Of a DNA stretch of 43,204 nucleotides, positions 910 to 43,204 are shown piece by piece. Below the pieces are notes generated by a model that saw only the letters and a program-made list of their open reading frames with translations, did no database searches and had not been told where the DNA came from. Both the position numbers and the translations under genes were made by a program. This DNA comes from a virus. Each line of letters starts with the position of its first letter. The stretch's first letter is position 1. The stretch lies in the UHGV virus genome UHGV-0865506, one strand, 5' to 3'.

Positions 910-944
910 AACCCTCACTCCTCTGTCTCGTTCCAATAAGTGAA

Positions 945-972
945 TAGTATCCTATTATGTTGGGGTGCGCAA
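945..972 (-). promoter_or_regulatory. sigma70-like promoter, TTGCGC-N17-TACTAT, member of the TACTATTCA family
   Basis: Reverse complement reads TTGCGCACCCCAACATAATAGGATACTATTCA; near-identical motif at 23504, 32569 and 42842. Confidence 0.45.
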
Positions 973-1136
973 GAGAATAGTTACGTTGCCGTTGTGATTC
1001 TTTCGTTTCTTAAAAGAGTACGCAACGCAGTGGGTGGGCGTTAGCCCACCCCAGCGGAGTGAAGTACTCTCTACCTTGCTCACGGCAACTATAGAAACTT
1101 TTAATTATCAGTGACTTGGATATTTAGGCGGGATTA

Positions 1137-1290
1137 ACAATAGACTTTGACCCTTCCGAAAGCGTCAGCGGAACTACACTCAAGTGCCTAATGGCACGCG
1201 TTGCGTTCCCTGCCGCTCCGCGGTCGCTTGCGATATCTCACAAGCTCAGTGAAGCTTAGCATATTTTTAAGTAAAAGTCAATACTAGTAG
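1137..1290. repeat. conserved intergenic element, copy 1 (structured leader with embedded minus-strand promoter)
   Basis: About 150 bp, roughly 80% identical to 32359..32512, with compensatory changes in a hairpin (GTGCC-TAAT-GGCAC here, GGAC-TTAC-GTCC in copy 2). Confidence 0.6.
1253..1281 (-). promoter_or_regulatory. sigma70-like promoter TTGACT-N17-TAAGCT inside repeat copy 1
   Basis: Minus-strand hexamers with 17-nt spacer, conserved in both repeat copies. Confidence 0.4.
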
Positions 1291-1328
1291 CATCTTTTGC
1301 ATCTTAGTAACTTTGTGTGGTGTTTTGG

Positions 1329-1386: not shown

Positions 1387-1557
1387 ATGACTATCAATGA
1401 AGTTGCAGAATTAATCGGCGTCACCCGCCAGACAATCAATAACTGGATTAAGAGTGGAAAGTTTCCTGATTGCAGCGTTAAAGTAATGGGCCGCCGGATG
1501 CCAGGAACATTTGACCGTAATAAAGTTGAAGCATGGATTAAGGAGAACGTGAAATGA
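1387..1557 (+). CDS. helix-turn-helix DNA-binding protein, AlpA/excisionase-like
   Basis: MTINEVAELIGVTRQTINNWIKSGKF is a typical HTH_17/AlpA motif; AGGAGA Shine-Dalgarno; start taken at the internal Met of track ORF 1297..1557. Confidence 0.6.
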   Translation: MTINEVAELIGVTRQTINNWIKSGKFPDCSVKVMGRRMPGTFDRNKVEAWIKENVK

Positions 1558-1902: not shown

Positions 1903-4170
1903 ATGTCCGATGTAATTTTATCCTACTCGTGGTCACGCCGCAACGCGCGAGCAGAGAAAAAGGATATAAACGTCAGAACCACACACACGGCAACACTGGA
2001 CGACCTGAAAGAGCTAATCAAGCCGCTCGATGCCGTTCGTGACGGGATTAACCCCAAGACTGCGGCCGGTTATATCACGGCCGCGTGCGATTCTACACAC
2101 AGCACCGTAAAAGACCCGGAAACCGGTGGCTTTAAACAAGCGCGTAAAGGCTTCTTCTATCGCTGTGACGCGTCTGTGAGCAAATCGTCGCTGGCGTATC
2201 TGGACTTCGACAGTGCAACACCGGAAGAGTACCAGGAAGCGGTGCGCCAGGTTAATCGCAGCCGCCGGGCGATGTGTCTCTACACCACGGCATCACATAC
2301 CGATGAGTCGCCGCGCTTTCGCGTCGTTATGCCGCTGGCCCGCCCGGTTGAGGGTGGTGATATCATCCGTGTTCGCCACGGATTGCTGGAACACTTCTTC
2401 AAAGGCATGGGTGCGGACCGCAGCGGGTTTACTCTGTCGCAGCCGATGTACCTACCACCGGTTGGCTCTCAGGTTATCTGGTCGCGCCGCAACGACCTGA
2501 TTGACCCGGACGAATTACTGGAAGGCGCCACCGCCGTTGACGTTAGCAGCGCATCGGATTACCAGATACCGGAAGAACTGCGCACAGCGTTTACAGACGC
2601 GTTCGAAGCGCTGGCGTTTGAGTACGGCGGCGTCATGACGCCGCGCGGCCTTAAGATGCCAGCTACACCGGAACACGCAGAGAACTACAGCGACCCTACG
2701 CCGCGCCCGGATGACTTCCTGCTGTGTTTCCCGCGTGAAGGGTACGAAGCGCCGAACGTAACCATGATTCACGACACCGACATTACGGCAACCGAAGGCA
2801 TGTCACCGAAAGAGGTGTGGAAATACGCGTGTGATGCGACCGGGCTGCCGTTCAGTGAAGTGGCTGAGGCTATAGGGTGGGGCGCGCGTGAATCTGTTTC
2901 ATGCAGCCTTGACGACCTGGAAGACGAGGATGACTCAGAGGAGGACGAGTTACCGGAACCGGTAAAGGCTGATTTCGTCGTTGAAGGGTACATGCCGTCG
3001 GATTGTATATGGGATATTGTCGGGGAATCAGGCACGTACAAATCGTTCTATACGCTGGGTATGATGTACCTTAGCGCGGCGGGATACCGGTTCGCAGGGG
3101 CTGATACCCAGCGTTGCCACCACTTCTATATCGACGGTGAGGGTGGTGCCGCTACGCGCACCCGTATCGACGCACTAGCGGCTAAATACGGCGTGGAAGG
3201 TAAAGATTATGTACACGTCATCGATATGGGTGAGGTCGGCAAACTGAAGAGCCTGATTAAGCTAATGCGCGAAACCGCGGGAGATGAACCTATTGGCATG
3301 GTCGCGTTCGACACACTAAACCAGACGCTGGCCCTGACGATTGATAAGTTCGACGAGAACAGTTCATCAACGGCAATCGGCATGGGTAAAGTTATCGCCA
3401 TCCTTAAAGAAGTGCGTGACGCGACTAAAGCCGCGGTAGGCGTTGTCCATCATACGCCGAAAGGCGGAAAGAAAGCCCGTGGCAGTGGGGCGCTGTATGC
3501 TGGTGTCGACGTGGAACTGACAATTGAACGCGCAACCGACCGCCAGATAAACGTATATCACTCTAAATTTAAGCACGGGCCTCAACAGAAGACGGTTGGC
3601 ATGGTGCTGGAGTCGGTACAGTTCCGTGAAGCACCGCCGCCGAAAGAGTACCGTGCGGTTGAGTTCATCGGTAGCACAGAGGAATACGGCACAATCGTAA
3701 ACCTCGACCTGCCTGAGCCGCACAAGGCGCTTGTGCTGATGCCGTGGGGCTTCGAGCCGTTCAAGACTGACGAGGAGAAAGAGCGGGAAGAAGGGCTGAC
3801 AAAGGAAGGTAAAGAAAACGTACGTAAAACCGTAGAGAACGCCGTCAACAGTTCGGAGGCCACGATACTGGCAGCGTTTGAGCTGGCAGAAGGAACCTAC
3901 AGCGGCAACGAAGGCATCACGGTAGCTGCAGCGAATAAGCTCGCGCAGTCTGACCCCAACGCGAAGGCGTTTAACTCCAAAGAAGCTATAGAACGCGGGA
4001 AGATTAAGAAAATGGTTGAGGCCGGGTATCTTGTTCCGGGTACTGACGAAAACAATCAGATAATCCCTGGTCGTTACAGGCTGAACACCCGAATAACTGA
4101 TAACAAGATTCCGAAGACAATATACGAACCGAATGAAATGTTGACAGTGACAGAGGAGGATTTGGAATGA
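1903..4170 (+). CDS. primase-polymerase (AEP-like) fused to a RecA-like helicase domain
   Basis: 755 aa. N-terminal LAYLDFDS (DxD) and TTASHTD (sxH) resemble archaeo-eukaryotic primase motifs; central GESGTYKS P-loop-like motif and VVHHTPKGG suggest an NTPase/helicase domain. Confidence 0.75.
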   Translation: MSDVILSYSWSRRNARAEKKDINVRTTHTATLDDLKELIKPLDAVRDGINPKTAAGYITAACDSTHSTVKDPETGGFKQARKGFFYRCDASVSKSSLAYLDFDSATPEEYQEAVRQVNRSRRAMCLYTTASHTDESPRFRVVMPLARPVEGGDIIRVRHGLLEHFFKGMGADRSGFTLSQPMYLPPVGSQVIWSRRNDLIDPDELLEGATAVDVSSASDYQIPEELRTAFTDAFEALAFEYGGVMTPRGLKMPATPEHAENYSDPTPRPDDFLLCFPREGYEAPNVTMIHDTDITATEGMSPKEVWKYACDATGLPFSEVAEAIGWGARESVSCSLDDLEDEDDSEEDELPEPVKADFVVEGYMPSDCIWDIVGESGTYKSFYTLGMMYLSAAGYRFAGADTQRCHHFYIDGEGGAATRTRIDALAAKYGVEGKDYVHVIDMGEVGKLKSLIKLMRETAGDEPIGMVAFDTLNQTLALTIDKFDENSSSTAIGMGKVIAILKEVRDATKAAVGVVHHTPKGGKKARGSGALYAGVDVELTIERATDRQINVYHSKFKHGPQQKTVGMVLESVQFREAPPPKEYRAVEFIGSTEEYGTIVNLDLPEPHKALVLMPWGFEPFKTDEEKEREEGLTKEGKENVRKTVENAVNSSEATILAAFELAEGTYSGNEGITVAAANKLAQSDPNAKAFNSKEAIERGKIKKMVEAGYLVPGTDENNQIIPGRYRLNTRITDNKIPKTIYEPNEMLTVTEEDLE

Positions 4171-4364: not shown

Positions 4365-4390
4365 AAAGAAAGGGGCGTTAAGCCCCTTCA
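4362..4390. terminator. rho-independent terminator, mainly minus-strand (bidirectional position)
   Basis: Hairpin AGGGGC-loop-GCCCCT with A-tract on the plus strand (T-tract on minus) just after the stop of the HTH gene 4378..4593. Confidence 0.55.
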
Positions 4391-4593
4391 CCGAACGCCA
4401 GCCACTTAGCATCTACTTGCAGCACTTCCGCCAGTTTAAACAGCGTTGCCGGGCGGACGTCCTGAGTTACCCCGAGCGCAAGCTGGTTAATCGCGCCCTG
4501 GGAAACCCCGGCCAGGACAGCCAGACGACGCTGGGAGATGCCGAGTTCTTTGCGGCGTTGTTCTACACGGATACCTAGTTCTGATGGTTGCAT
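4378..4593 (-). CDS. XRE-family (Cro/CI-type) helix-turn-helix transcriptional regulator
   Basis: ELGISQRRLAVLAGVSQGAINQLALG is a canonical HTH_XRE motif; divergent from the rightward promoter at 4658. Confidence 0.75.
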   Translation of the reverse strand: MQPSELGIRVEQRRKELGISQRRLAVLAGVSQGAINQLALGVTQDVRPATLFKLAEVLQVDAKWLAFGEGA

Positions 4594-4624
4594 GTCAGTT
4601 ACTCCTTAGTCAGTTGATACGTGA

Positions 4625-4653
4625 ATAGTACCATATTAATTATTTTAGAAAAG
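4625..4653 (-). promoter_or_regulatory. candidate promoter for the XRE regulator gene (TACTATTCA family, extended -10 TGGTACTAT, weak -35)
   Basis: Reverse complement contains TGGTACTATTCAC immediately upstream of the gene. Confidence 0.35.
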
Positions 4654-4657
4654 CCCA

Positions 4658-4687
4658 TTGACAACATGAATAGTTCGCTATTATAGT
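4658..4687 (+). promoter_or_regulatory. sigma70 promoter TTGACA-N18-TATAGT
   Basis: Consensus -35 and near-consensus -10; back-to-back with the regulator promoter. Confidence 0.55.
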
Positions 4688-7264: not shown

Positions 7265-7761
7265 GTTTAGTTCGGGAGCGTTTCATTTATGAAAACGGGA
7301 AACTAATCTATCGCCACAATACAAAAAGAATGTTAGCTGGTCAGGAGGCAGGAAGCCTCCACCATTCAGGGTATGTGCAGATCTACATTAATCGTAAGTC
7401 CTACCAAAGAAGCCGTTTAATATGGGAGTACCACAACGGCCCTATACCTGAAGGGTTTGAGGTGGACCATATAAATGCGATAAGAAATGATGACAGGATA
7501 GAGAATCTCCAGTTAATCGCTCATAGCGATAATGTGGCTAAAGGCGGCATTCAAACCGGAAGAAGTCATAACAAAAGCGGGTACACTGGCGTGTTTTGGC
7601 GCAAAAGCCATGGTAAATGGCAGGCTGGAATTACCGTAAACGGGCAATATCGTTACCTTGGACTATTCGAAACTCCTGAACAGGCTAACGTGGCGAGAAA
7701 GAATTTTGAAAGTAATTTGCTAAAAGAAGTTGACTACCGAATAGCGAACTATTATAGTTAA
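7261..7761 (+). CDS. HNH homing endonuclease with AP2 DNA-binding domain
   Basis: HNH motifs (YHNGPIPEGFEVDHINAIRNDDRIENLQLIAHSDN) followed by an AP2-like segment (GVFWRKSHGKWQAGITVNGQYRYLGLFETPEQA). Confidence 0.8.
   Translation: MSLVRERFIYENGKLIYRHNTKRMLAGQEAGSLHHSGYVQIYINRKSYQRSRLIWEYHNGPIPEGFEVDHINAIRNDDRIENLQLIAHSDNVAKGGIQTGRSHNKSGYTGVFWRKSHGKWQAGITVNGQYRYLGLFETPEQANVARKNFESNLLKEVDYRIANYYS
7730..7758 (+). promoter_or_regulatory. sigma70 promoter TTGACT-N17-TATAGT embedded in the 3' end of the HNH gene
   Basis: Near-consensus hexamers; part of a 32-bp repeat shared with 11631..11660. Confidence 0.5.
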
Positions 7762-7821
7762 ATCACTGGCCGGGCAGTTCCCGGAGTAAACTTAAAATCT
7801 AAACTTAATGAGGGCTGAACT

Positions 7822-8502: not shown

Positions 8503-8976
8503 ATGGAACATATAAAAGATTTTCTTAGTTATAACCGAGAAACCGGAATATTCACATGGATACAACCTACGTACAGACGAGGGAGACCCGGAGACATTGC
8601 GGGATGTATGAATAGTAGCGGATACTGGCGCATACCCTACATGGGTAGATACTACATGGCCCATAGGCTTGCTTGGTTTTTCGAGTACGGCGAATGGCCT
8701 GAGGGGCCTCTTGACCATATAAACCGTGACAGGTTAGACAATAGGATTTCTAACCTAAGGAAAGCAACCACAGCGGATAATGTGCGAAACGCTAAAAATA
8801 AGGGAGCTAGAACGGGAGTTAAGGGAGTAGTTAAAAACGGCAACCGGTTTTATGGGCGTGTACATTTTAACTACAAAAGTTATAACGCTGGTAGCTACGG
8901 AACTCTTGAAGAAGCAGAAAGCGCTGTAAAGAAATTAAGAGAAAAACTGCATAAGGAATTTTATTGCCATGACTAG
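8503..8976 (+). CDS. HNH homing endonuclease with AP2-like domain (second copy)
   Basis: HNH motifs (EGPLDHINRDRLDNRISNLR) plus AP2-like GVKGVVKNGNRFYGRVHF; start at internal Met with GGAG Shine-Dalgarno. Confidence 0.8.
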   Translation: MEHIKDFLSYNRETGIFTWIQPTYRRGRPGDIAGCMNSSGYWRIPYMGRYYMAHRLAWFFEYGEWPEGPLDHINRDRLDNRISNLRKATTADNVRNAKNKGARTGVKGVVKNGNRFYGRVHFNYKSYNAGSYGTLEEAESAVKKLREKLHKEFYCHD

Positions 8977-11173
8977 TTTATTGTACCTGGATACCGAGAC
9001 ATTCTCCGAAGCAGACTTAAAGAAAGTCGGGTCGTATGCGTATGCGGAGCACCCAACGACAGAGGTTATAATTTGTACGTATGCCGTTGATGACGGTCCT
9101 GTAGAAGTATGGGATTGCACTTCCGAATCAGTAATGCCGATAAGCCTCCGTGTGGCTCTCCGTAATGTTATGCGTGGACGTATGAAAATCGTGGGCCATA
9201 ACTTTTTAATGTTCGATCGCCTAATCATGAAACACTGCTGGGGCTTCGATATACCGGTAAGCAACACCATTGACACGATGATTTGGGCGTTTCGTCACGC
9301 GCTGCCAGGTTCACTTGATGCGCTGTGTGAAGTGCTTGGCGTGTCCGCTGATAATGCGAAAGACAAACGCGGCAAGGCGCTGATTCAGCGTTTCTCTAAA
9401 CCGACACCGAAGAACTACAAAATTCGCCGCTACACCGCCGAAACACACCCTGACGAGTGGGCGCTGTTCATCAAGTACGCCGTGAGTGACATTACTGCTA
9501 TGCGTGAAGTCTTCCATAAGCTTCCGCGGTGGGGTAACTCTGAGTTTGAAGACCGTGTACTGGAACTGGACCAGTTAATCAATGACCGTGGGTTTAAGGT
9601 TGACGTTGCACTGGCGGAAGCCGCGATTGAAGCCGTGGAGAAACACAAAGCACAGTTACAGGAAGAAGCCCAACGCAAATACGGCGGCTCGCTTACGGGT
9701 AAAGACTTTCTGCCGATTCTGCGTGAACTTGCCCCAGCGCACCACATACACAATGCGCAGAAGTCGACGCTTAACGACCTGTTGGTGGACGATGATTTAC
9801 CTGACGACGCCCGCACGATTATCGAAATGCGCCTCGGGGCCGCGTCCACAGCGTCAACGAAATATAACCCGCTGCTGTTGGGCCGCTCGTCGGACGACCG
9901 ACGCCGCGGTTGTTTACAGTACGGCGGGGCAAAACGTACTTTGCGGTGGGCGGGTAAAGGCTTTCAGCCGCAGAACCTGGCCCGCGGGTACTATCATGAT
10001 GATGAACTGGATAAAGGCATTTCAGCGTTACTTAAGGGTCGTGCTCACCGCCGATTTGACGTAGCCAAGCTGACGGCATCGACGGTCCGTAGCTGCATCA
10101 TACCGGAAGCCGGGCACAAGTTTGTCGTAGCTGATTACTCTAACGTCGAAGGTCGTGGGTTAGCGTGGTTAGCAGGAGAAGAAACCGCGCTCGATACGTT
10201 CCGTGCCGGACTGGATATTTACTGTGTAACCGCAGGTAAGATGTTTGGCATGGACCCTGACGATATTAAGAAAAACTTTAAGGAAATCAGACAGATAGGC
10301 AAGGCTTGCGAACTGGGCCTCGGCTACGAGGGGGGTGTCGGAGCGTTCGTTACGTTTGCTAAAAACTTAGGTCTTGACCTTATTGAGATGGCAAAAACAA
10401 TGGACGGGACTTTCCCTGACCACATCTGGGCCGCTACCGCGAGAGGATATGAATGGGCGCGCATCCAGGAAGCCAAGCGCCCCCCACATCCAGGTGAAAA
10501 GGACGATAGGCCATCGTATATTCTTGATAAAAAAGTATGGCGTACTTGTGATGCTATCAAGCGTATGTGGCGCGAGTCACACCCGGAAACAGTAGCGTTC
10601 TGGCGCGACCTTAAAGACGGAATTTTAGCCGCTGTGCGTAATCCTGGCCGTGAATTTTGGGCGGGGGCACACTTGCGCAGGAATGGGGAAAGGGCTATCC
10701 GTATATGGCGTACTGTAGAATTTGATTCATCCGGCAGGAAGGTTCCTGGTTGGTGGTTGTGTATGGAGCTGCCGTCAGGCCGTATCCTCTCGTATCCAGG
10801 AATAGGCGTTAGTGTGACTGTGACAAAGGAAACAGACGAAGGCGGACGGGTAAACACGGATGTGCGAATCAAGTATCAGGGTGAAAACCAGTTAACCCGC
10901 CAATGGACTACCCTGTACACCCATGGCGGCAAAGCCTGCGAAAACATTGTCCAGGCGTTGTGTCGTGATTTACTCGCGTATGCGATGATTAATGTTGAGG
11001 GTGGCGGGTACCCCATCGTGCTTTCGGTACACGATGAACTGGTATGTGAAACTCCCGACACACCTGAGTACACGGTGGCCGAACTGGAAAAATTAATGTG
11101 CGCATTGCCGGAGTGGGCCGAGGGGTTCCCTCTTGTAGCAGAAGGCGCGGAGATGATGCGTTATGCCAAGTAA
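8969..11173 (+). CDS. family A DNA polymerase with 3'-5' exonuclease domain
   Basis: Exo motif LYLDTETF; Pol A motif A (VVADYSNVEGRGLA), motif B (RQIGKACELGLGYEGG), motif C (VHDELV). Confidence 0.9.
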   Translation: MTSLLYLDTETFSEADLKKVGSYAYAEHPTTEVIICTYAVDDGPVEVWDCTSESVMPISLRVALRNVMRGRMKIVGHNFLMFDRLIMKHCWGFDIPVSNTIDTMIWAFRHALPGSLDALCEVLGVSADNAKDKRGKALIQRFSKPTPKNYKIRRYTAETHPDEWALFIKYAVSDITAMREVFHKLPRWGNSEFEDRVLELDQLINDRGFKVDVALAEAAIEAVEKHKAQLQEEAQRKYGGSLTGKDFLPILRELAPAHHIHNAQKSTLNDLLVDDDLPDDARTIIEMRLGAASTASTKYNPLLLGRSSDDRRRGCLQYGGAKRTLRWAGKGFQPQNLARGYYHDDELDKGISALLKGRAHRRFDVAKLTASTVRSCIIPEAGHKFVVADYSNVEGRGLAWLAGEETALDTFRAGLDIYCVTAGKMFGMDPDDIKKNFKEIRQIGKACELGLGYEGGVGAFVTFAKNLGLDLIEMAKTMDGTFPDHIWAATARGYEWARIQEAKRPPHPGEKDDRPSYILDKKVWRTCDAIKRMWRESHPETVAFWRDLKDGILAAVRNPGREFWAGAHLRRNGERAIRIWRTVEFDSSGRKVPGWWLCMELPSGRILSYPGIGVSVTVTKETDEGGRVNTDVRIKYQGENQLTRQWTTLYTHGGKACENIVQALCRDLLAYAMINVEGGGYPIVLSVHDELVCETPDTPEYTVAELEKLMCALPEWAEGFPLVAEGAEMMRYAK

Positions 11174-11389: not shown

Positions 11390-11663
11390 GGGGCGCATCC
11401 AGAAATACGCAAAAGAGCGATTCGAGGCTATCGGCGGCCTCGTACGCAAATTGTCGTACGAAAATAGAGCGGGCGCTCCTGACCTGCTGGTAATTCTCCC
11501 CGGCGGCATCATCTGGTTCGTCGAGGTTAAGAAAGACGAAAACACGAAGCCAGACCCACACCAGCTACGAGAGCACGAGCGGATGCGTAAACGTGGAGCA
11601 AATGTTTTTGTCGTTGGTTCGTTTAAACAGGTTGACGACCTAATAGCGAACTATTATAGTTAG
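11376..11663 (+). CDS. VRR-NUC domain nuclease
   Basis: GAPDLLV...WFVEVKKD matches the PD-(D/E)XK core of VRR-NUC proteins; position after DNA polymerase is typical. Confidence 0.7.
   Translation: MSTPEGRIQKYAKERFEAIGGLVRKLSYENRAGAPDLLVILPGGIIWFVEVKKDENTKPDPHQLREHERMRKRGANVFVVGSFKQVDDLIANYYS
11632..11660 (+). promoter_or_regulatory. sigma70 promoter TTGACG-N17-TATAGT embedded in the 3' end of the VRR-NUC gene
   Basis: Part of the 32-bp repeat shared with 7730..7758. Confidence 0.5.
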
Positions 11664-11693: not shown

Positions 11694-11885
11694 ATGAAAC
11701 ACGAATATGACCGTAAACCAGCACGTGACATCGTACCTGGCGACATGATTTTCAACGTTAAGACACGTCGCCCTGTTGCCGTTGATACGGTGTTCGTCGA
11801 GTCGAACGGTAAACTGGTTATCGAAGATGTAACTGGTAACGTTACGGCGTTCGGGCGTAAAGAGCTGGTGCTGGTGGCAAAATGA
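11694..11885 (+). CDS. hypothetical protein
   Basis: Track ORF with AAGGAA Shine-Dalgarno. Confidence 0.5.
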   Translation: MKHEYDRKPARDIVPGDMIFNVKTRRPVAVDTVFVESNGKLVIEDVTGNVTAFGRKELVLVAK

Positions 11886-12565
11886 TTGTCTGGTCATTGT
11901 TTGACGGTTCGGGCCTTATGGCCCAACCGTGGGCAGAAGCGGGCCATACTTGCTATTGTTTCAACTACGATGGTGCCGACCACGGCGACTACGCGCGATT
12001 GGGCGCAAAAGTTGAACACGAGAACATCCACTATATAAACGCGTGGATTGATAATAAGTTCGACTTCGAGGTTTCGCCAGATATTATTTTTGCGTTCCCT
12101 CCTTGCACAGATTTAGCCGTTAGTGGCGCGGCGCATTTCGAAACGAAGCGTAAGAAGAACCCAACGTTTCAGGTAGAGGCTGTTATCACATGCAAAGTGG
12201 CGGCACGCCTGGCTAAAAGGTATAACGTACCTTATATGATTGAGAACCCAGTTAGCGTCCTCTCGTCTTTGTGGCGTAAGCCCGATTATGTGTTCAATCC
12301 TTACGAATACGGCGGCTATCTACCGGAAGACGATACGCATCCAATGTTCCCTGAATACATAAAACCCCGAGACGCGTACCCTAAAAAGACATGTCTTTGG
12401 ACGGGTAATGGTTTCGTAATGCCGGTTAAGTCAGGTGTTGCCGTGGGTGATGGGTATTCTGACCAGCACAACAAACTTGGCGGTAAATCAGTGCGGACAA
12501 AAACAATCCGCAGCCTTACTCCTCGGGGTTTCGCAAAAGCAGTTTACGAGGCTAATCATGTCTAA
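11882..12565 (+). CDS. DNA (cytosine-5)-methyltransferase-like protein, compact, no obvious target-recognition domain
   Basis: LFDGSG (motif I-like), FAFPPCTDLAVSG (PC catalytic motif IV-like), MIENPVS (ENV motif VI-like); only 227 aa. Confidence 0.5.
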   Translation: MIVWSLFDGSGLMAQPWAEAGHTCYCFNYDGADHGDYARLGAKVEHENIHYINAWIDNKFDFEVSPDIIFAFPPCTDLAVSGAAHFETKRKKNPTFQVEAVITCKVAARLAKRYNVPYMIENPVSVLSSLWRKPDYVFNPYEYGGYLPEDDTHPMFPEYIKPRDAYPKKTCLWTGNGFVMPVKSGVAVGDGYSDQHNKLGGKSVRTKTIRSLTPRGFAKAVYEANHV

Positions 12566-23503: not shown

Positions 23504-23532
23504 TTGCACACCCCAATATAATAGGGTACTAT
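23504..23532 (+). promoter_or_regulatory. sigma70-like promoter TTGCAC-N17-TACTAT (TACTATTCA family) driving the rightward cassette
   Basis: TTGCACACCCCAATATAATAGGGTACTATTCA; near-identical to 32569..32600. Confidence 0.5.
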
Positions 23533-23562
23533 TCACTTACACCAACAATGAAGGGGTTTAAA

Positions 23563-32249: not shown

Positions 32250-32358
32250 GTTTCTCCTTTCTCGATAAGTAAAGCCCCGCCTTAAAGCGGGGCGCTAGTC
32301 CTTATCATTTAAACATAGAAACGGCGTAATCTCCGTAAACCAGTTACTTTTTACACAA

Positions 32359-32512
32359 GCAATAGACTATGGCCCTTCCGAACGCGTCAGCGTAACTACA
32401 CTCAGGACTTACGTCCCGCTCCGTTACCTGCCCGCGCCGCGGTCGCTTGTTCATACTTCACAAGCTCAGGTGGAGCTTAGCACATTTTTAGTGAAAAGTC
32501 AACTATTCGAAT
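32359..32512. repeat. conserved intergenic element, copy 2
   Basis: Homologous to 1137..1290; lies in the 5' leader region of the spanin/late operon. Confidence 0.6.
32474..32502 (-). promoter_or_regulatory. sigma70-like promoter TTGACT-N17-TAAGCT inside repeat copy 2
   Basis: Same hexamers and spacing as in copy 1. Confidence 0.4.
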
Positions 32513-32568
32513 AGTTTATTCCAACATTTACAATTAGGTGGAATAACAGGAATACGTAAACAAATAGT

Positions 32569-32597
32569 TTGCACACACCAATATAATAGGGTACTAT
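32569..32597 (+). promoter_or_regulatory. sigma70-like promoter TTGCAC-N17-TACTAT (TACTATTCA family)
   Basis: TTGCACACACCAATATAATAGGGTACTATTCA, about 28 nt upstream of the 32625 gene. Confidence 0.5.
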
Positions 32598-32624
32598 TCA
32601 GTTAACTTAAACAGGAGATGGAAA

Positions 32625-32909
32625 ATGACACACAAATTTAAAGGTACAGACGGTGCATGGGTTAATCGCGGAACGGCTATCTGGGCAGGACATGTTTATG
32701 TGGCCGAGGTAATGAGTGTGCGGGAAAATGACTCAGTAAAATTGGCTAACGCAAAACTTATTTCCTCGGCACCAGAGTTACTCGAAGCACTTCGCCAGCT
32801 TCGCGATTACGTCGAGGATGTTTGCGAGGTATCCTCCGATGATTGCCATGAAGACCATCCATTAAATCAGGCCAGCAGAGCAATTAAGAAAGCATTAGGA
32901 AAGCAATAA
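32625..32909 (+). CDS. hypothetical protein in a moron-like cassette
   Basis: AGGAGA Shine-Dalgarno; own promoter and terminator; opposite strand to the flanking late genes. Confidence 0.55.
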   Translation: MTHKFKGTDGAWVNRGTAIWAGHVYVAEVMSVRENDSVKLANAKLISSAPELLEALRQLRDYVEDVCEVSSDDCHEDHPLNQASRAIKKALGKQ

Positions 32910-33398: not shown

Positions 33399-34453
33399 TA
33401 TTCCCCTTTCAGATAATCAGCAACACGTTTATCGAGTTCCGCCATCTGCTTAAGCGTGAGCGGGTTCCCGAAACCATCTACAGATATTACGCGAAACTCT
33501 TCCGGCGATATACCGCTGTTGCGGAAAATCTTACCGCGAACAGGTCCTAGAGCCTGGTCCTGAAACCATGCAGGCTGTTGTTTCAGGAACTCGTAATAGG
33601 TTGTATCTGCGCTTACCTGAGTACCGCCGTCTGCGCCCTTAGCCGCCCGCTTAGCCCCCTCGTCTAGAAAGTCCAGGAAGTCATCTTCGATTACCGGGAT
33701 AGTGGTACTGCGGCAGTTTGGGTGTGCAGGGGGCATAGGCCCTCTACCTACGTCATATTTCTGGCCGTCGCGCGACTTACATACAGTCGAAGTGCGGCTG
33801 TCGAGCGTAGATACCCACTGATATTTGCGCACAATATCGCTGTTGCTGTCGTACACAGAATCTCGCGCCGTGTTCGATACGTGGCTCACTGCTGTTCGGA
33901 CTACCGTCATTACGTTGCGCTCAGAGATATCAGCCAGGCCGCCAGGGCCTGCAACGGCAGAGACAATCTGGCGGGTTGTCTGTCCCTGCACAAAGCCGGT
34001 CTGTACGCCACGCACAAGGCGGTTACGCTCAGTCTGCGCCCAACCGGACATCAGGTCCATAACGCCAACAGGTGCGTTACCCAGCGCCAGTGGTGCGAAC
34101 TTGATACGCGACCACAGTTCTTCAGCCGTAGGTCCAGTAATGAACGTTTTTGGCTTCGTGTTGGCCCCCAGCGTATGGATAAACCACTTATTCTCGTAGT
34201 CGGCAATCTCGCGCAGGCTCTTCTCTATCGTGCTCTTCCAGTCGCTGGTGACGTCATCCAGGACGCCATCCAGGCTTGCCAGCATTTTATTCAGCTTCTT
34301 CACTGTTCGCGCGTCGTCACCGAACCTAAGCACCGCGTCGCGCACCTCAGCCCGCATCTTATTGACGAAGGGGACGGACAGCGACGCTGTTTGCGTTCCG
34401 AGTCTCTGTAGCCATATTTGATGGCTGATAATCATCTGCGATAGCTGGCTCAT
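33398..34453 (-). CDS. head morphogenesis protein (Mu F / SPP1 gp7 family)
   Basis: HPNCRS motif and position directly downstream of portal. Confidence 0.75.
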   Translation of the reverse strand: MSQLSQMIISHQIWLQRLGTQTASLSVPFVNKMRAEVRDAVLRFGDDARTVKKLNKMLASLDGVLDDVTSDWKSTIEKSLREIADYENKWFIHTLGANTKPKTFITGPTAEELWSRIKFAPLALGNAPVGVMDLMSGWAQTERNRLVRGVQTGFVQGQTTRQIVSAVAGPGGLADISERNVMTVVRTAVSHVSNTARDSVYDSNSDIVRKYQWVSTLDSRTSTVCKSRDGQKYDVGRGPMPPAHPNCRSTTIPVIEDDFLDFLDEGAKRAAKGADGGTQVSADTTYYEFLKQQPAWFQDQALGPVRGKIFRNSGISPEEFRVISVDGFGNPLTLKQMAELDKRVADYLKGE

Positions 34454-35925
34454 TGCTCCGCCTCTTCATCCTGCTGCGCTGTAGCCGGAATCTCCCCGGT
34501 AGTCTGTGTAACCAACGGCAGAGGCGCATCCTCGATAGCATTCTGGATGTCCTCGTCGGTCCAGTCAGTCACCCCCGCCTTACGCAACGCCGCGTAGTAA
34601 GCGGTAGCTGGTAGCAGGCCTGCGTTAATGTCTGCCATCCACTGAGCACGGTCTTGCGCAGTCATCGGTTGCAGGAAGAACTCCATATTCAGCTTGAACT
34701 CAATTTCTGTGCCTTCACGTAGCCCAAGCATCGCCGCCGCCCAGCGCAACGCATCGGTGTACGCCATGCTTACGTTCCGTGCGATTGTTGCCATAACGGA
34801 CGTATCCGCGCCGCGTTGTAGGCGGGCCGATTCAGCGGTGATTTGCTGTGTAGGGGTGATAAGCTGAGCACCAATCTGGATGGCCTGGTTCTCCTTATCC
34901 AGCATATTCTGCTTAGCCAGGTTGTTCTCTCCCGCCTGAACCAGAAACGCATTGCCGCCGTACCCGATGTTATGGCCTGAACGCGACCCCATGCGCACGC
35001 CGTGCGGGTTGGCTTCTTTCCACTGCTCCATGCTCATGTTATCGCCGGGGGCAATGAACAGAGTTGGTTGCCCAACAACGAAGCTGGACTCCTCATTGTC
35101 CGCGCTATTACGGAAATGCCCGATATTAAGTTCAGCCAACGGCAGCAAAGGTGCGTCGTCAATGGTTGCATCGTTGTTGCTTGCCCCAATGAACGTGAAC
35201 GGGATTTTGCCGCGCAACTGTTCGCCAAGTTCCGGGAAGATTTCGATTACTTGGCCCTGTGCACCACCTTCGGCATCGAAGCGGTAAATGCGCTGGCGGT
35301 AGCGTCCGTCAATCAAATCGAGAACGCGATACTGCTCGCCGAACTTTGTTTCAAACTCTGCACCAGGTTCCGAGTATTCCCATGCCTCACGCAACACGAC
35401 CATCGTCACGCGGTTAACAGAACCGACGCGAGTCAGCCGCCAGTTGATGATGTTCTCTGCGGTGTAGAATGCGATGACCGGGTTTAATAATCCCGCGTTC
35501 TGCTCTGCCGCCGTTGCCGCGGCCGTCTCCGGGGCGTCCACCAGCAACCCACCACGGCCCACCGAGTCAATCTCCATTAACGTATCCTGCGCGTGCTGCC
35601 ACAGCCCGACGCCGGAACCATCGGCATTGCGTAGCAGGTACTCCAGTTCAGGCGGGATAATTTGCTCGGGGTCTTTGCGCATTACGGACCCGACCATCCC
35701 CGCCAGCGTTCTCTTAGTGAAGTTGTAGCAGATAGCGCCGTTCTCGTATTCTTCCTGGCGCTGTGCTGCGTAGGCCGGGTCCGGTTCGTTCTTCCCGACG
35801 TTGCGAAGATAGCGAATAAGGTCGCCTTCCAGTGCGTGGCGTACCTTCTGCCATTTATCGAAGTGATGCAGCCATTCCCGGTGTTTTGTCTTAACACCCT
35901 GATTCTGACCGTTCATAGTTAACAT
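34450..35925 (-). CDS. portal protein
   Basis: 491 aa, between terminase large subunit and head morphogenesis gene. Confidence 0.85.
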   Translation of the reverse strand: MLTMNGQNQGVKTKHREWLHHFDKWQKVRHALEGDLIRYLRNVGKNEPDPAYAAQRQEEYENGAICYNFTKRTLAGMVGSVMRKDPEQIIPPELEYLLRNADGSGVGLWQHAQDTLMEIDSVGRGGLLVDAPETAAATAAEQNAGLLNPVIAFYTAENIINWRLTRVGSVNRVTMVVLREAWEYSEPGAEFETKFGEQYRVLDLIDGRYRQRIYRFDAEGGAQGQVIEIFPELGEQLRGKIPFTFIGASNNDATIDDAPLLPLAELNIGHFRNSADNEESSFVVGQPTLFIAPGDNMSMEQWKEANPHGVRMGSRSGHNIGYGGNAFLVQAGENNLAKQNMLDKENQAIQIGAQLITPTQQITAESARLQRGADTSVMATIARNVSMAYTDALRWAAAMLGLREGTEIEFKLNMEFFLQPMTAQDRAQWMADINAGLLPATAYYAALRKAGVTDWTDEDIQNAIEDAPLPLVTQTTGEIPATAQQDEEAEQ

Positions 35926-37209: not shown

Positions 37210-37708
37210 CGGACACCACCTTAATGGTTACTTCACTGATTGGCTCGTCACGTACTTCTTCGGCGGTAACAGTTTTATTCAACCCCAGCTTAGCTGCGGC
37301 AAACGTAGCAGAGATGCCAGCGGCTCCTGTCTCAGTGAAATAGGCCTCTTCCAGTGCCTGGGCTGTCTCCCAGGCTTCTGCAAATGCAGGAATCTCGCGC
37401 AGCCACAGCTTAATAATTGGGATAGTGACGCCGATGTGTAGTGCGAAGCGGGCCAGTGACGGTGGTTTATCCTGAATCAGTGGGCGTTCGTCACCCTTAG
37501 ACGTAGGCACAAGCTCCCACGACGTGCGGTCGAAGAACTCGATTAATTCGTCACAATAGTCCGGGTCCCACAGCGCGGCGGAATTACGGGATGATTGATA
37601 AAGGCTCTGTTTGCCGCGCGGTCGTTTACGGCGACGGTTTGCGCTAACAGCTTCTTCATGTGCAGCTTGCACCACCTCTGGCGATGGCTGCTTGAGTTTC
37701 AGCTTCAT
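37199..37708 (-). CDS. terminase small subunit
   Basis: HTH-like segment; start at internal Met with AAGGGGA Shine-Dalgarno; overlaps the large subunit start. Confidence 0.55.
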   Translation of the reverse strand: MKLKLKQPSPEVVQAAHEEAVSANRRRKRPRGKQSLYQSSRNSAALWDPDYCDELIEFFDRTSWELVPTSKGDERPLIQDKPPSLARFALHIGVTIPIIKLWLREIPAFAEAWETAQALEEAYFTETGAAGISATFAAAKLGLNKTVTAEEVRDEPISEVTIKVVSGER

Positions 37709-37773
37709 AGAATCCCCTTGCATATGCGTCTGACCATCAGAGCGCACCAGACGCGCCCTACGCGTCTAAAGGG

Positions 37774-37803
37774 ATTATATAAGGGGATTGGGCTGTATGT
37801 ACA
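37774..37803 (-). promoter_or_regulatory. candidate promoter for the terminase genes (TGTACA-N18-TATAAT)
   Basis: Consensus -10 on the minus strand directly downstream of a terminator hairpin. Confidence 0.3.
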
Positions 37804-37826
37804 GAAAAGCCCTCCGTAGAGGGCTT
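37801..37826 (-). terminator. rho-independent terminator
   Basis: Hairpin AAGCCCTC-CGTA-GAGGGCTT followed on the minus strand by TTTTCTGT. Confidence 0.5.
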
Positions 37827-37927
37827 GTATCAGTTATATAGGCCGTGTCGTGGTGCTCTTTTACCATCGCCGCCATAATGGTCGTTGGCTACGGCGATAA
37901 CCCAAGCGTTAGGTATGATTAGTAGTC

Positions 37928-39613: not shown

Positions 39614-39642
39614 AATATAGTAGGGTCGATGGTAATAGTCAA
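39614..39642 (-). promoter_or_regulatory. sigma70 promoter TTGACT-N17-TATATT
   Basis: Near-consensus hexamers on the minus strand, immediately after the lysis-cassette terminator. Confidence 0.5.
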
Positions 39643-39662
39643 CTAGTCATTGCAGAAAATAG

Positions 39663-41942: not shown

Positions 41943-42151
41943 TCTACATAATCCGGGAACTGGTCCTTGTATTTCTGTAACTCTTTTTGCTGTTCGTCAA
42001 TAATCCAGTCGCGATACGCCAACTCCGCGGCGATAGCCGATTTGCTGTTTAACCCTTCTCCGGTCATTGCCATCACATGTCTTGAATAGTAATTGTTAGT
42101 CATGTCGAGCATTTCTAAATCGCGCTCTGCGTATAATTTAATCATAATCAC
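41897..42151 (-). CDS. hypothetical protein
   Basis: Track ORF, ATGA-coupled. Confidence 0.45.
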   Translation of the reverse strand: MIMIKLYAERDLEMLDMTNNYYSRHVMAMTGEGLNSKSAIAAELAYRDWIIDEQQKELQKYKDQFPDYVECANCGSVTHVEGVE

Positions 42152-42810: not shown

Positions 42811-42841
42811 CTTCCGTCTCTCCTCTCGTTTGTGTAAATGA

Positions 42842-42870
42842 ATAGTAGCCTATTCTATCTTAGCATGCAA
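42842..42870 (-). promoter_or_regulatory. sigma70-like promoter TTGCAT-N17-TACTAT (TACTATTCA family)
   Basis: Reverse complement reads TTGCATGCTAAGATAGAATAGGCTACTATTCA. Confidence 0.45.
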
Positions 42871-43100: not shown

Positions 43101-43139
43101 CAAAAATGAGAAAAATGATACGCTGCTGTGTAGCAGCGT
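43101..43139 (-). terminator. rho-independent terminator
   Basis: Hairpin ACGCTGCT-GTGT-AGCAGCGT followed on the minus strand by ATCATTTTTCTCATTTTTG; lies just after the stop of the junction-spanning ORF if the genome is circular. Confidence 0.55.
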
Positions 43140-43204
43140 AAGTCACAAAGCCAAATAGTAAACTATTGACCTGTTACACCAGCGATGGCGGCTCTGGTAA
43201 CGGC

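What the first reader, a model, noticed from the sequence alone, without database searches (positions are those of the whole stretch)
945..972. Family of promoters sharing a GG(N)TACTATTCA core
Sites at 945..972 (-), 4625..4653 (-), 23504..23535 (+), 32569..32600 (+) and 42842..42870 (-) share TTGCNC-N17-TACTAT followed by TCA, with an additional conserved ATAATAGG spacer segment in several. Conservation beyond what sigma70 requires hints at a second recognition layer, such as a phage-encoded regulator (the XRE or excisionase-like HTH proteins are candidates) or a specific host factor.
Basis: seen in the sequence. Interest (0 to 1): 0.5.

Follow-up and report, generated by a model that had tools for sequence, protein, structure and literature searches.

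The report
Phage promoters sharing one operator palindrome
This lytic Kagunavirus phage has at least eight host-type promoters that all carry the same 14-bp palindrome, most likely the docking site of the phage's own small Cro-like repressor, so one protein could shut down early and middle genes together; the repeated motif was already listed in published genome papers, but not explained.

Summary
The window is a complete Kagunavirus (Guernseyvirinae) genome. The GG(N)TACTATTCA core is real: TACTATTCA occurs 7 times against 0.25 expected, and five copies sit before genes. One of the five sites (4622-4637) lacks the claimed TTGC -35 and has an extended -10 (TGgTACTAT) instead.

The unit that repeats is not the promoter but a 14-bp dyad, (T/G)AATAG-N4-CTATT(A/C). 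It has 8 exact copies against 0.03 expected, all at spacing 4. It also sits in the spacer of three stronger, unreported "class II" promoters (TTGACN-N17/18-TATAGT) before replication genes.

In relatives the arms are invariant, while the centre and the register to the -35 vary. Related lineages carry different promoter palindromes: Cornellvirus TATTA-N6-TAATA and Eiauvirus GTTAA-N6-TTAAC. Each lineage also encodes a diverged ortholog of a 71-aa XRE protein that is 41% identical to phage 434 Cro. That gene lies directly behind an imperfect copy of the dyad.

Best reading: a Cro-type repressor-operator regulon, inferred but not shown experimentally. The motif was published as a PHIRE "phage RNAP promoter", but these phages have no annotated RNA polymerase gene. 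This is a new member of a known kind and of moderate interest.

The parts
941..972 (-). Class I promoter plus operator. -35 TTGCGC at 967-972, dyad AATAGGATACTATT at 943-956, -10 TACTAT at 944-949, TCA at 941-943. It drives a block of small early-type ORFs that starts at ATG 908.
   Evidence: first gene matches phrog_12538
4622..4637 (-). Promoter of the XRE gene. Imperfect dyad AATATGGTACTATT at 4624-4637, -10 TACTAT at 4625-4630, extended -10 TG at 4632-4633, no -35. The single arm mismatch (G to T) is the base that creates the TG.
   Evidence: identical layout in RP180, K1G and fBC-Eco01
4378..4593 (-). Gene for the 71-aa XRE / Cro-like HTH_3 protein, the candidate operator-binding repressor. 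It is monocistronic and followed by a terminator-like hairpin at 4369-4389.
   Evidence: Pfam HTH_3 E=1.2e-12; best PDB sequence hit is 434 Cro, E=4.9e-7; 41% identity over 63 aa; AF2 model pLDDT 84 with five helices, best Foldseek hit 2cro; terminator
4658..4687 (+). Class II promoter plus operator, divergent from the XRE gene. TTGACA-N18-TATAGT, dyad AATAGTTCGCTATT at 4669-4682 in the spacer, abutting the -10. It drives ORFs from 4719 onward, including the PD-(D/E)XK exonuclease.
   Evidence: 11/12 match to the sigma-70 consensus
7730..7758 (+). Class II promoter plus operator. TTGACT-N17-TATAGT, dyad AATAGCGAACTATT at 7740-7753. It drives the DUF2815 gene (7822) and DNA polymerase (8969-11173).
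   Evidence: cross-genus comparison of the orthologous promoter
11632..11660 (+). Class II promoter plus operator. TTGACG-N17-TATAGT, dyad AATAGCGAACTATT at 11642-11655. It drives the resolvase, methyltransferase and helicase block.
23504..23535 (+). Class I promoter plus operator. TTGCAC at 23504-23509, dyad AATAGGGTACTATT at 23520-23533, -10 at 23527-23532. It drives the superinfection-immunity gene and the exonuclease block, which is embedded between the tail and head genes.
   Evidence: Imm_superinfect E=7.5e-13
32569..32600 (+). Class I promoter plus operator. TTGCAC at 32569-32574, dyad at 32585-32598, -10 at 32592-32597. It drives a 94-aa ORF (32625-32909, phrog_1273) that runs antisense to the structural genes.
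42839..42870 (-). Class I promoter plus operator. TTGCAT at 42865-42870, dyad AATAGGCTACTATT at 42841-42854 (6-bp arms GAATAG/CTATTC), -10 at 42842-42847. It drives small ORFs from ATG 42810.
43154..43167 (.). Exact dyad AATAGTAAACTATT without a convincing -35. It lies just upstream (on the - strand) of a terminator hairpin at 43119-43140. It could be an orphan operator or a weak promoter.
39614..39647 (-). Promoter TTGACT-N17-TATATT downstream of a terminator-like element. A degenerate dyad, ACTAGTTGACTATT (one mismatch), overlaps its -35. Conserved in RP180, K1G, fBC-Eco01 and Jerseyvirus.
32494..32516 (.). Perfect 16-bp palindrome AACTATTCGAATAGTT, with half-sites in the outward CTATT-N2-AATAG arrangement. 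It abuts and overlaps the -35 of a leftward TTGACT-N17-TGcTAAGCT promoter before the late head genes.
1387..1557 (+). Gene for the 56-aa HTH_17 (excisionase/MerR-like) protein, the first gene of the helicase-primase operon. It is the rival candidate regulator. Its own promoter-like site (TTGCTT-N17-TATACT, about 1328-1356) carries no dyad.

Best explanation
The sites are sigma-70-type promoters of a virulent Kagunavirus, read by host RNA polymerase. Each has a 14-bp dyad operator, (T/G)AATAG-N4-CTATT(A/C), laid over its core.

**Two promoter classes carry the operator.**
The right arm of the dyad is part of the -10.
- Class II is new here: TTGACN-N17/18-TATAGT, a 10-11/12 match. The dyad fills the spacer and abuts the -10.

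**Proposed mechanism (inferred).**
- A dimer of the phage's 71-aa 434-Cro-like XRE protein (gene 4378-4593, - strand) binds these operators.
- Because every operator overlaps the RNA polymerase footprint, binding represses transcription.
- As XRE accumulates it would turn down the small early genes, the superinfection-immunity/exonuclease cassette and the three replication operons.
- It would also turn down its own gene, through an imperfect operator on an extended -10 promoter.
- Promoters without the dyad would escape. These are the HTH_17/helicase-primase operon and the TTGACT-N17-TGcTAAGCT promoter before the head genes.

**What is shown and what is inferred.**
- Shown: the motif statistics, the dyad symmetry, its position on promoters, its conservation pattern, and the homology and fold of XRE.
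- Inferred: that XRE is the binder, that binding represses, and the timing.
For: 1. **Statistics.** AATAG-N4-CTATT has 8 exact copies against 0.031 expected (P about 2e-17). Spacings 0-3 and 5-8 have none. It is the top 5-mer inverted repeat in an unbiased scan of the window, RP180, fBC-Eco01 and K1G, and ties for top in a Jerseyvirus.
2. **Location.** Seven of the eight exact copies, plus the one-mismatch copy, lie between the -35 and +1 of a promoter-like site facing a gene.
3. **The dyad is separable from the promoter hexamers.** It starts 10 nt after the -35 in class I, 4-5 nt after it in class II, and 7 nt after it in the Jerseyvirus superinfection-immunity promoter.
4. **Arms conserved, surroundings free.** In orthologous class II promoters of Kaguna- and Jerseyviruses both arms are invariant, while the 4 nt on either side of the left arm are fully diverged (ACCG/CCCG/AGTT and CGAA/TTAG/TACT/AACA). 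In Cornellvirus the same promoter keeps its -35, -10 and downstream hairpin but has lost the left arm, so AATAG is not needed for promoter function.
5. **Lineage-specific palindromes.** Each comes with a diverged XRE ortholog:
   - Kagunavirus: helix-3 SQGAINQ, TAATAG-type dyad.
   - Cornellvirus and SE1: helix-3 TQSAISH, TATTA-N6-TAATA (one symmetric base change), 3 observed against 0.04 expected.
   - Eiauvirus: helix-3 SRPFISQ, GTTAA-N6-TTAAC, 5 observed against 0.08 expected, all just after TTGCAM-N17-TATAGT promoters.
   - Dhillonvirus HK578: no XRE ortholog and no repeated promoter palindrome.
6. **XRE resembles 434 Cro.** It has the same length, 41% identity and the same five-helix fold. 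From established knowledge, 434 Cro binds 14-bp dyad operators as a dimer.
7. **Control-region layout.** The XRE gene sits behind an imperfect operator, 45 bp centre-to-centre from a perfect operator on the divergent class II promoter.
Against: - No binding, footprint or transcription-start data exist. The only RNA-seq study of a Kagunavirus is too coarse to help: it places one HTH gene among four 'early' genes without saying which one.
- Kaguna- and Jerseyvirus XRE proteins differ at four helix-3 positions (GA.NQ against SL.TH) yet share the same dyad. Jersey and Cornell helices are more alike yet their dyads differ. The protein-DNA covariation is therefore not clean.
- The Cornellvirus dyad has few copies. 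After correction for about 4,600 possible dyads its P is only about 0.06.
- The XRE promoters of eiAU-183 and the Jerseyvirus carry at best a half-site or a degenerate dyad.
- The loci were selected through XRE, so its presence there is by construction.
- Class I promoters are weak consensus matches (7/12). Part of their 80-nt similarity, including the 5'UTR, could reflect cassette duplication.
Confidence: 0.55

Rival explanations
1. The operator is real but the binder is a different protein. Candidates are the 56-aa HTH_17 (excisionase-like) protein encoded at 1387-1557, another small phage protein, or a host transcription factor.
For: - HTH_17 is encoded from a dyad-free promoter at the head of the helicase-primase operon, as an immediate-early regulator would be.
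- It is present in exactly the two genera that share the TAATAG dyad.
- The XRE helix-3 differences between Kaguna- and Jerseyviruses do not track the dyad.
Against: - HTH_17 is missing from Kagunavirus contigs L020 and L033. There it is replaced by a 47-aa Zn-ribbon protein plus a 149-aa protein, yet L033 keeps six exact dyads and L020 three.
- It is also missing from Cornellvirus, SE1 and eiAU-183, which still have promoter palindromes.
- From general knowledge of the family, HTH_17/Xis-type proteins usually bind as monomers to direct repeats, not to 5-4-5 dyads.
- Host factor: Jerseyvirus and Cornellvirus both infect Salmonella but use different dyads. I know of no enterobacterial regulator with this site (from memory, not tested).
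Confidence: 0.2
2. There is no second layer. The sites are ordinary sigma-70 promoters that look alike because promoter plus 5'UTR cassettes were duplicated and spread with moron-like genes, and the dyad is incidental.
For: - Similarity extends about 40 nt beyond the promoter into the 5'UTR (ACACCAACAAT, AAACGAGAGGAGAG).
- fBC-Eco01 has an extra class I cassette in front of an inserted gene at 3919.
- -10-like hexamers are intrinsically AT-rich and partly self-complementary.
Against: - The dyad occurs only at spacing 4.
- It occurs in three different registers relative to the -35.
- The left arm lies in the spacer, which sigma-70 does not read. It is invariant across genera while its neighbours are randomised, and it is dispensable in the orthologous Cornellvirus promoter.
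- Independent lineages have different palindromes in the same kind of place.
Confidence: 0.13
3. XRE, or whichever protein binds, acts positively or in a dual way like a restriction-modification controller (C) protein. It would activate the weak class I promoters and/or the late promoters that have half-sites next to their -35, and repress others.
For: - Class I promoters are poor consensus matches, 7/12.
- Half-sites or palindromes abut the -35 of the promoters at 39614-39642 and at about 32488-32516.
- C.AhdI, C.BclI and C.Esp1396I are among the structural neighbours of the XRE model.
Against: - At all class I and II sites the dyad overlaps the -10 or the spacer with a 17-18 nt spacing. From general knowledge, that is a repressing position and not a class I/II activator or MerR-type position.
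- The -35-adjacent elements are degenerate or differently spaced (N2).
Confidence: 0.1
4. The motif is the promoter of a phage-encoded RNA polymerase, as annotated for fBC-Eco01 (PHIRE 'phage RNAP promoter' PP1-PP7).
For: The fBC-Eco01 paper and its GenBank record label exactly this motif (tgAATAGTa-ccTATTat-T) as phage-RNAP promoters.
Against: - No RNA polymerase gene is annotated in RP180, K1G or fBC-Eco01.
- In the syntenic relatives RP180, K1G and fBC-Eco01, the large genes are annotated as helicase-primase, DNA polymerase, helicases, tail and head proteins, with no RNA polymerase among them.
- The motif sits inside complete sigma-70-type -35/-10 frames.
- PHIRE only reports repeated 20-mers.
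Confidence: 0.02

Closest known systems
Phage 434 Cro (and the 434 / P22 c2 repressor DNA-binding domains) with their 14-bp OR/OL operators
   Same: - The XRE protein has the same length (71 aa), 41% identity and the same five-helix HTH_3 fold.
- The operator is a 14-bp dyad with conserved outer arms and a free centre, and it overlaps the promoter.
- The regulator gene lies next to a divergent promoter pair with two operators.
- The first helix-3 glutamine (Q32) is invariant.
   Different: - The host phage is virulent, with no CI partner, integrase or immunity region annotated.
- Operators are single and scattered over at least 8 promoters around the genome, instead of tripartite OR/OL clusters.
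- The half-site sequence is AATAG, not ACAA.
- Binding is untested.
Distributed repressor sites of temperate actinophages: phiC31 conserved inverted repeats and mycobacteriophage L5 gp71 'stoperators' (from memory, not checked here)
   Same: One phage-encoded regulator has many copies of a short conserved site spread through the genome at or near early promoters.
   Different: - Those phages are temperate and the sites maintain lysogeny.
- L5 sites are asymmetric and act on elongation.
- The proteins are unrelated to or larger than the 71-aa Cro-like protein here.
PHIRE 'phage promoters' reported for Kagunaviruses fBC-Eco01 (PMC9825357, Table S2) and VB_EcoS-Golestan (PMC7203180)
   Same: The seven Golestan sequences were not read.
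   Different: - It was published as a promoter for a phage RNA polymerase that these phages do not encode.
- The palindrome, the class II members, the link to the XRE gene and the lineage-specific variants were not noted.
Restriction-modification controller (C) proteins and C-boxes
   Same: - They are small XRE-family dimers that are structural neighbours of the model.
- Their palindromic boxes overlap their own promoter, giving autoregulation.
   Different: - No adjacent restriction-modification gene pair is present. The only methyltransferase (11882-12565) is 7 kb away and no endonuclease partner was seen.
- The sites are spread over many operons.
T4 MotA/AsiA middle promoters and phi29 p4 (temporal switches of virulent phages; from memory)
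   Same: A phage-encoded DNA-binding protein recognises a box shared by one temporal class of host-polymerase promoters.
   Different: MotA boxes replace the -35 and activate. The p4 sites lie upstream and bend DNA. Here the dyad overlaps the -10 or the spacer and suggests repression.

Membership tests
Sigma-70-type bacterial promoter | -35 hexamer beginning TTG, a 16-18 nt spacer, and a -10 hexamer TAnnnT | tested here: met
   - Class I: TTGC[GA][CT]-N17-TACTAT at 4 sites.
- XRE promoter: an extended -10, TGgTACTAT, instead of a -35.
- Class II: TTGACN-N17/18-TATAGT, a 10-11/12 match.
- Class I is only 7/12 and falls below the scan threshold.
Sigma-70-type bacterial promoter | Placed upstream of, and facing, a gene or operon with a ribosome-binding site | tested here: met
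   All eight sites lie 25-65 nt before an SD plus start codon, at the head of a co-directional block.
Sigma-70-type bacterial promoter | Transcription initiates 6-8 nt downstream of the -10 | not testable with these tools
   No 5'-end data are available. The published K1B4 RNA-seq gives only gene-level time classes.
Cro/CI-type (XRE, HTH_3) repressor-operator system | Regulator has an HTH_3 domain with the five-helix 434 Cro/repressor fold | tested here: met
   - Pfam HTH_3, E=1.2e-12.
- 434 Cro is the best PDB sequence hit, E=4.9e-7, 41% identity.
- AF2 model pLDDT 84 with helices 5-17, 21-28, 32-39, 48-57 and 62-66; top Foldseek hit 2cro, TM 0.72-0.78.
Cro/CI-type (XRE, HTH_3) repressor-operator system | Dyad-symmetric operator of about 14-17 bp with conserved arms and a variable centre | tested here: met
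   AATAG-N4-CTATT has 8 exact copies, only at spacing 4, with centres GGAT, GGTA, CGAA, TTCG, GCTA and TAAA. The arms are invariant across Kaguna- and Jerseyviruses.
Cro/CI-type (XRE, HTH_3) repressor-operator system | Operators overlap the core promoter, so that binding excludes RNA polymerase | tested here: met
   The dyad covers the -10 in class I, and the spacer up to the -10 in class II. In eiAU-183 the lineage's own dyad covers the -10 edge and the transcription start region.
Cro/CI-type (XRE, HTH_3) repressor-operator system | Regulator gene adjacent to its own operator(s) (autoregulation) | tested here: met
   The XRE gene lies directly downstream of the imperfect dyad at 4624-4637. 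A perfect dyad at 4669-4682 sits on the divergent promoter. The layout is the same in RP180, K1G and fBC-Eco01, but degenerate in the Jerseyvirus and eiAU-183.
Cro/CI-type (XRE, HTH_3) repressor-operator system | The protein binds the operator specifically as a dimer and represses transcription | not testable with these tools
   This needs EMSA, footprinting or reporter assays. It is supported only indirectly, by lineage-specific dyads that accompany diverged XRE orthologs.
Temperate-phage immunity switch (CI/Cro with lysogeny module) | A CI-type repressor with a C-terminal oligomerisation/cleavage domain, an integrase, and clustered OR/OL | tested here: not met
   No integrase or long CI is annotated in RP180, K1G or fBC-Eco01. 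The operators are single and dispersed.
Phage-encoded RNA polymerase promoter (T7-like) | The genome encodes a single-subunit or other phage RNA polymerase | tested here: not met
   No RNAP is annotated in three close relatives. The large genes of the three syntenic relatives are all annotated as replication or structural proteins.
Restriction-modification controller (C protein / C-box) | The C gene is immediately upstream of, or overlapping, an R-M gene pair | tested here: not met
   The XRE gene is flanked by the helicase-primase operon and by hypothetical and exonuclease genes. The methyltransferase is at 11882-12565 and no endonuclease is adjacent.

The most novel reading that the evidence does not exclude
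Virulent Guernseyvirinae and their Eiauvirus relatives run their whole early-to-late programme through one Cro-like master regulator. Its operator 'code' co-evolves lineage by lineage: TAATAG-N4-CTATTA, then TATTAG-N4-CTAATA, then GTTAA-N6-TTAAC. The same protein would repress every dyad-bearing early and middle promoter. It might also help switch on late promoters through the half-sites abutting their -35 (32494-32516, 39634-39647). If so, this would be a compact, swappable, orthogonal repressor/operator set from lytic phages.
Probability: 0.2. Interest if true: 0.55.

Novelty: new member of a known kind. Interest (0 to 1): 0.4.

Why it matters
- **Practical relevance.** Kaguna- and Jerseyviruses are widely isolated for phage therapy and food biocontrol, yet their gene-expression programme is essentially unstudied.
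- **A testable switch.** If the reading is right, the early/middle-to-late switch of this group reduces to one 71-aa protein and a 14-bp site present on at least eight promoters. EMSA, reporter fusions or an XRE knockout can test this directly.
- **Correction of the literature.** It corrects a published annotation (a 'phage RNA polymerase promoter' in a phage with no annotated RNA polymerase gene). It also shows that the XRE gene is left unannotated in the RefSeq records of K1G and RP180.
- **Engineering and specificity.** The lineage-specific dyads offer a small natural series of orthogonal Cro-like repressor/operator pairs, and a case study in how HTH specificity drifts.
- **Limits.** It is not a new principle. 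Cro-type repression of sigma-70 promoters is textbook, and the repeated motif was already in print.

Tried and rejected
- **Literal TTGCNC-N17-TACTAT family.** With one mismatch allowed the pattern is not above chance (4 against 2.4 expected). The significant unit is the TACTATTCA/dyad part, so the family was redefined around the palindrome.
- **Isolated half-sites.** GAATAG alone is not enriched (23 against 17.7 expected).
- **TACTATTCA at 8609 and 42083.** Neither has a -35, a dyad or a gene context, so both were set aside as chance.
- **Phage-RNAP promoter reading.** Rejected on gene content.
- **Bidirectional-promoter symmetry.** Read by eye, a reverse-strand TTGGTG-N17-TATTAT frame exists at site 3 only and is not general. 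Rejected.
- **Literature.**
  - No paper on operators or Cro in Guernseyvirinae was found. The 'Cro' hit opened for reading (PMC12919940) used CRO as the abbreviation for ceftriaxone; the other hits were not read.
  - The MB78 promoter papers I recall are not in the library. I recall a 1990s report of a phage MB78 promoter lacking a -35 that interacts with a phage factor. This is from memory and could not be checked.
- **IMG/VR scan for AATAG-N4-CTATTATAGT.** From the contig names and lengths in the scan output alone, the hits mixed multi-copy contigs of about 41-45 kb (several also recovered by the XRE search) with single matches in other contigs; these loci were not examined further. It was not informative beyond that.
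- **Information-content logo of selected sites.** It is biased by the selection rule, so it was replaced by orthologous-promoter comparison.
- **Markov-shuffle significance test.** It timed out and was replaced by an analytic Poisson estimate.
- **Rfam.** There were no hits at gathering score in the whole window.
Full report
**What the window is.** The 43,204-bp window is a complete, circularly permuted genome of a Kagunavirus (Guernseyvirinae, virulent siphophages of Enterobacteriaceae).
- It matches Raoultella phage RP180, K1G and relatives at about 86-89% identity over about 70% of the first 25 kb.
- Its DNA polymerase is 98.4% identical to that of Escherichia phage fBC-Eco01.
- The annotated relatives list replication, structural and lysis genes. 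They list no RNA polymerase and no integrase.

**Checking the observation.**
- All five named sites carry GG(N)TACTATTCA on the stated strand, 25-35 nt before a Shine-Dalgarno sequence and ATG.
- TACTATTCA occurs 7 times against 0.25 expected. ATAATAGGNTACTATTCA with up to 3 mismatches occurs 6 times against 0.07 expected.
- The stated -35 holds at four sites. One of them reads TTGCAT.
- The site at 4622-4637(-) has no -35. It reads TGgTACTAT, an extended -10.
- Two more TACTATTCA copies (8609, 42083) lie inside mechanically listed ORFs, without any other promoter feature, and look like chance.

**What the conserved block really is.**
- The 'spacer segment' ATAATAG and the -10 (TA)CTATT are the two arms of an inverted repeat.
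- AATAG-N4-CTATT occurs 8 times exactly, at 943, 4669, 7740, 11642, 23520, 32585, 42841 and 43154. No copy exists at any other spacing from 0 to 8.
- From the arm frequencies the expectation is 0.031 (P about 2e-17).
- The XRE-gene promoter carries a one-mismatch copy at 4624-4637.
These are the three best sigma-70 matches in the first 15 kb, at 10-11 of 12. They face the replication and recombination operons.
- In class I the right arm is part of the -10 and the dyad starts 10 nt after the -35. In class II the dyad fills the spacer, starts 4-5 nt after the -35 and abuts the -10.
- Class I promoters match consensus at only 7/12 and fall below the scan threshold.

**Comparative evidence that the dyad is a separate element.**
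- In an unbiased scan of all 5-mer inverted repeats at spacings 0-8, AATAG/4 is the top hit in the window (8), RP180 (8), fBC-Eco01 (7) and K1G (6). It ties for top in the Jerseyvirus blauehaus (4). It is absent from Cornellvirus VSiA, phage SE1 and Dhillonvirus HK578.
- In the orthologous promoter before the DUF2815 gene, Kaguna- and Jerseyviruses keep TTGAC, both arms and TATAGT. The 4 nt before the left arm (ACCG, CCCG, ACTG, AGTT) and the centre (CGAA, TTAG, TACT) are fully diverged.
- Cornellvirus and SE1 keep the -35, the -10 region and a downstream hairpin at that promoter but have lost the left arm. The left arm lies where sigma-70 reads no sequence, so it is not required for a promoter there.
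- The Jerseyvirus promoter of the superinfection-immunity operon carries the dyad 7 nt after its -35, with TATTAT as -10. That is a third register.

**Other lineages have other palindromes.**
- Cornellvirus-like genomes carry TATTA-N6-TAATA. Written as a 16-mer this is TATTAG-N4-CTAATA, one symmetric base change from TAATAG-N4-CTATTA.
- The copies sit at promoters in positions that correspond to class I sites of the window: VSiA 7554, 14749 and 37322; SE1 3781 and 25391; L057 13208.
- There are 3 copies against 0.043 expected in VSiA. This is marginal after correction for about 4,600 possible dyads.
- Edwardsiella phage eiAU-183 carries GTTAA-N6-TTAAC 5 times (expected 0.08, P about 3e-8). All copies are intergenic, each starts inside the last two bases of a TTGCAM-N17-TATAGT promoter, and each lies about 20 nt before an SD and ATG.
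- HK578 has no repeated promoter palindrome.

**Candidate binder.**
- Directly downstream of the imperfect dyad lies a monocistronic 71-aa gene (4378-4593, - strand), followed by a terminator-like hairpin.
- The protein is an HTH_3/XRE protein. Its best match among all PDB sequences is phage 434 Cro, also 71 aa (E=4.9e-7; 41% identity over 63 residues).
- A single-sequence AlphaFold model (pLDDT 84) has five helices, and its best Foldseek hit is 2cro.
- From established knowledge, 434 Cro binds 14-bp dyad operators as a dimer, with conserved outer bases and a free centre. That matches the anatomy seen here.
- The XRE promoter and the divergent class II promoter at 4658 each carry a dyad, 45 bp apart centre to centre. 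This is a Cro-like control region.

**Distribution of the two HTH proteins.** Orthologs of XRE occur in every palindrome-bearing lineage, with different recognition helices, and not in HK578.

| Lineage | XRE helix-3 | HTH_17 | Promoter dyad (exact copies) |
|---|---|---|---|
| Kagunavirus | SQGAINQ | mostly present; absent in L020, L033 | (T/G)AATAG-N4-CTATT(A/C), 6-8 |
| Jerseyvirus | SQSLITH | present | TAATAG-N4-CTATTA, 4 |
| Cornellvirus / SE1 | TQSAISH | absent | TATTA-N6-TAATA, 2-3 |
| Eiauvirus eiAU-183 | SRPFISQ | absent | GTTAA-N6-TTAAC, 5 |
| Dhillonvirus HK578 | no ortholog | absent | none |

- The other candidate is the 56-aa HTH_17 protein at 1387-1557.
- In the two Kagunavirus contigs that lack it, a different gene pair takes its place, yet those contigs keep three (L020) and six (L033) exact dyads.
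- Jersey- and Cornellviruses both infect Salmonella but use different dyads. This argues against a host factor.

**Weak points.**
- Nothing has been shown biochemically.
- The Kaguna and Jersey XRE helices differ at four positions yet share a dyad. The Jersey and Cornell helices are more alike yet their dyads differ.
- The XRE promoters of the Jerseyvirus and eiAU-183 carry only degenerate or half sites.
- The IMG/VR loci were chosen through XRE, so its presence there is by construction.
- Part of the class I similarity extends into the 5'UTR and may reflect cassette duplication. fBC-Eco01 has an extra class I cassette before an inserted gene.
- The only Kagunavirus RNA-seq study is too coarse. 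It only notes that one HTH gene is among four early genes.

**Mechanism proposed.**
- Host RNA polymerase starts at class I, class II and dyad-free promoters.
- XRE is made from its own extended -10 promoter and accumulates.
- As a dimer it occupies the dyads that overlap the -10 or the spacer. This represses the small early genes, the immunity/exonuclease cassette, the 94-aa antisense gene and the three replication operons. More weakly, it represses its own gene.
- Dyad-free promoters would be spared. These are the HTH_17/helicase-primase operon and the conserved TTGACT-N17-TGcTAAGCT promoter before the head genes.
- I give about 0.85 that the sites are promoters and about 0.7 that the dyad is a protein operator. 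I give about 0.55 to the whole statement with XRE as a repressor.

**Comparison with what is known.**
- The motif is in print. fBC-Eco01 Table S2 lists PP1-PP7 (TGAATAGTACCCTATTATAT and variants, consensus tgAATAGTa-ccTATTat-T) as 'phage RNAP promoters'. The Golestan paper lists seven PHIRE promoters.
- That attribution fails on gene content.
- I found no report of the palindrome, the class II members, the Cro-like gene link or the lineage-specific variants.
- Functionally this is a Cro-type repressor-operator system. It differs from the 434/lambda paradigm in sitting in a virulent phage and in having single operators dispersed over many promoters. In that respect it is closer to the distributed sites of phiC31 or L5 (from memory).
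- Verdict: a new member of a known kind, of moderate interest.

Noticed in passing
window 1121-1293 (-) and 32350-32519 (-): Two copies of a roughly 170-nt element. Each starts with a conserved TTGACT-N17-TGcTAAGCT promoter and is followed by a GC hairpin. Copy 2 precedes the late head genes.
- RNAalifold on six copies gives a long-range helix plus an inner hairpin. Of 30 pairs, 4 show compensatory changes, and the inner hairpin differs between the two window copies.
- No Rfam family matches.
- It is a candidate structured leader RNA. An antitermination-type role is speculation.
   Followed up: partly
L001 (RP180) 34870-35082; L003 (K1G) 33428-33640: The 71-aa XRE/Cro-like gene is not annotated in the RefSeq records of RP180 and K1G. 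In RP180 the HTH_17 match (37937-37770, - strand) overlaps gp44 'DNA-binding protein', which is annotated on the opposite strand (37657-37896, +).
   Followed up: partly
L033 12559-13144 and L020 3624-4209: In two Kagunavirus contigs the HTH_17 gene and its neighbour are replaced by a 47-aa CxxC...CxxC protein plus a 149-aa protein. This looks like module replacement at the head of the helicase-primase operon.
   Followed up: partly
L002 (fBC-Eco01) 3371-3936: fBC-Eco01 has an extra class I promoter/dyad cassette (3919) driving a gene inserted between the portal and head-morphogenesis genes. The window has no gene at that position. Class I cassettes seem to travel with moron-like genes that run antisense to the late operons.
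   Followed up: no
window 7765-7790 (+): A hairpin (CCGGGCAGTTCCCGG) in the 5'UTR of the DUF2815 gene is conserved from Kagunavirus to Cornellvirus and SE1, although the surrounding bases diverge. Its function is unknown.
   Followed up: no
window 32501-32516 and 39634-39647: A perfect 16-bp palindrome, AACTATTCGAATAGTT, has its half-sites in outward orientation at spacing 2. A degenerate dyad, ACTAGTTGACTATT, also occurs. Each overlaps the -35 of a leftward TTGACT promoter. Both are conserved in relatives, and it is unclear whether the same factor reads them.
   Followed up: partly
window 8609-8617 (-) and 42083-42091 (-): Two extra exact TACTATTCA copies lie inside mechanically listed ORFs, without a -35, a dyad or a downstream gene start. 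They are probably chance.
   Followed up: yes
L187 (eiAU-183) 13209, 14854, 27758, 28101, 42907: This Edwardsiella phage has its own five-member promoter family, TTGCAM-N17-TATAGT immediately followed by GTTAA-N6-TTAAC. Two further one-mismatch copies lie at 31163 and 31989.
   Followed up: partly
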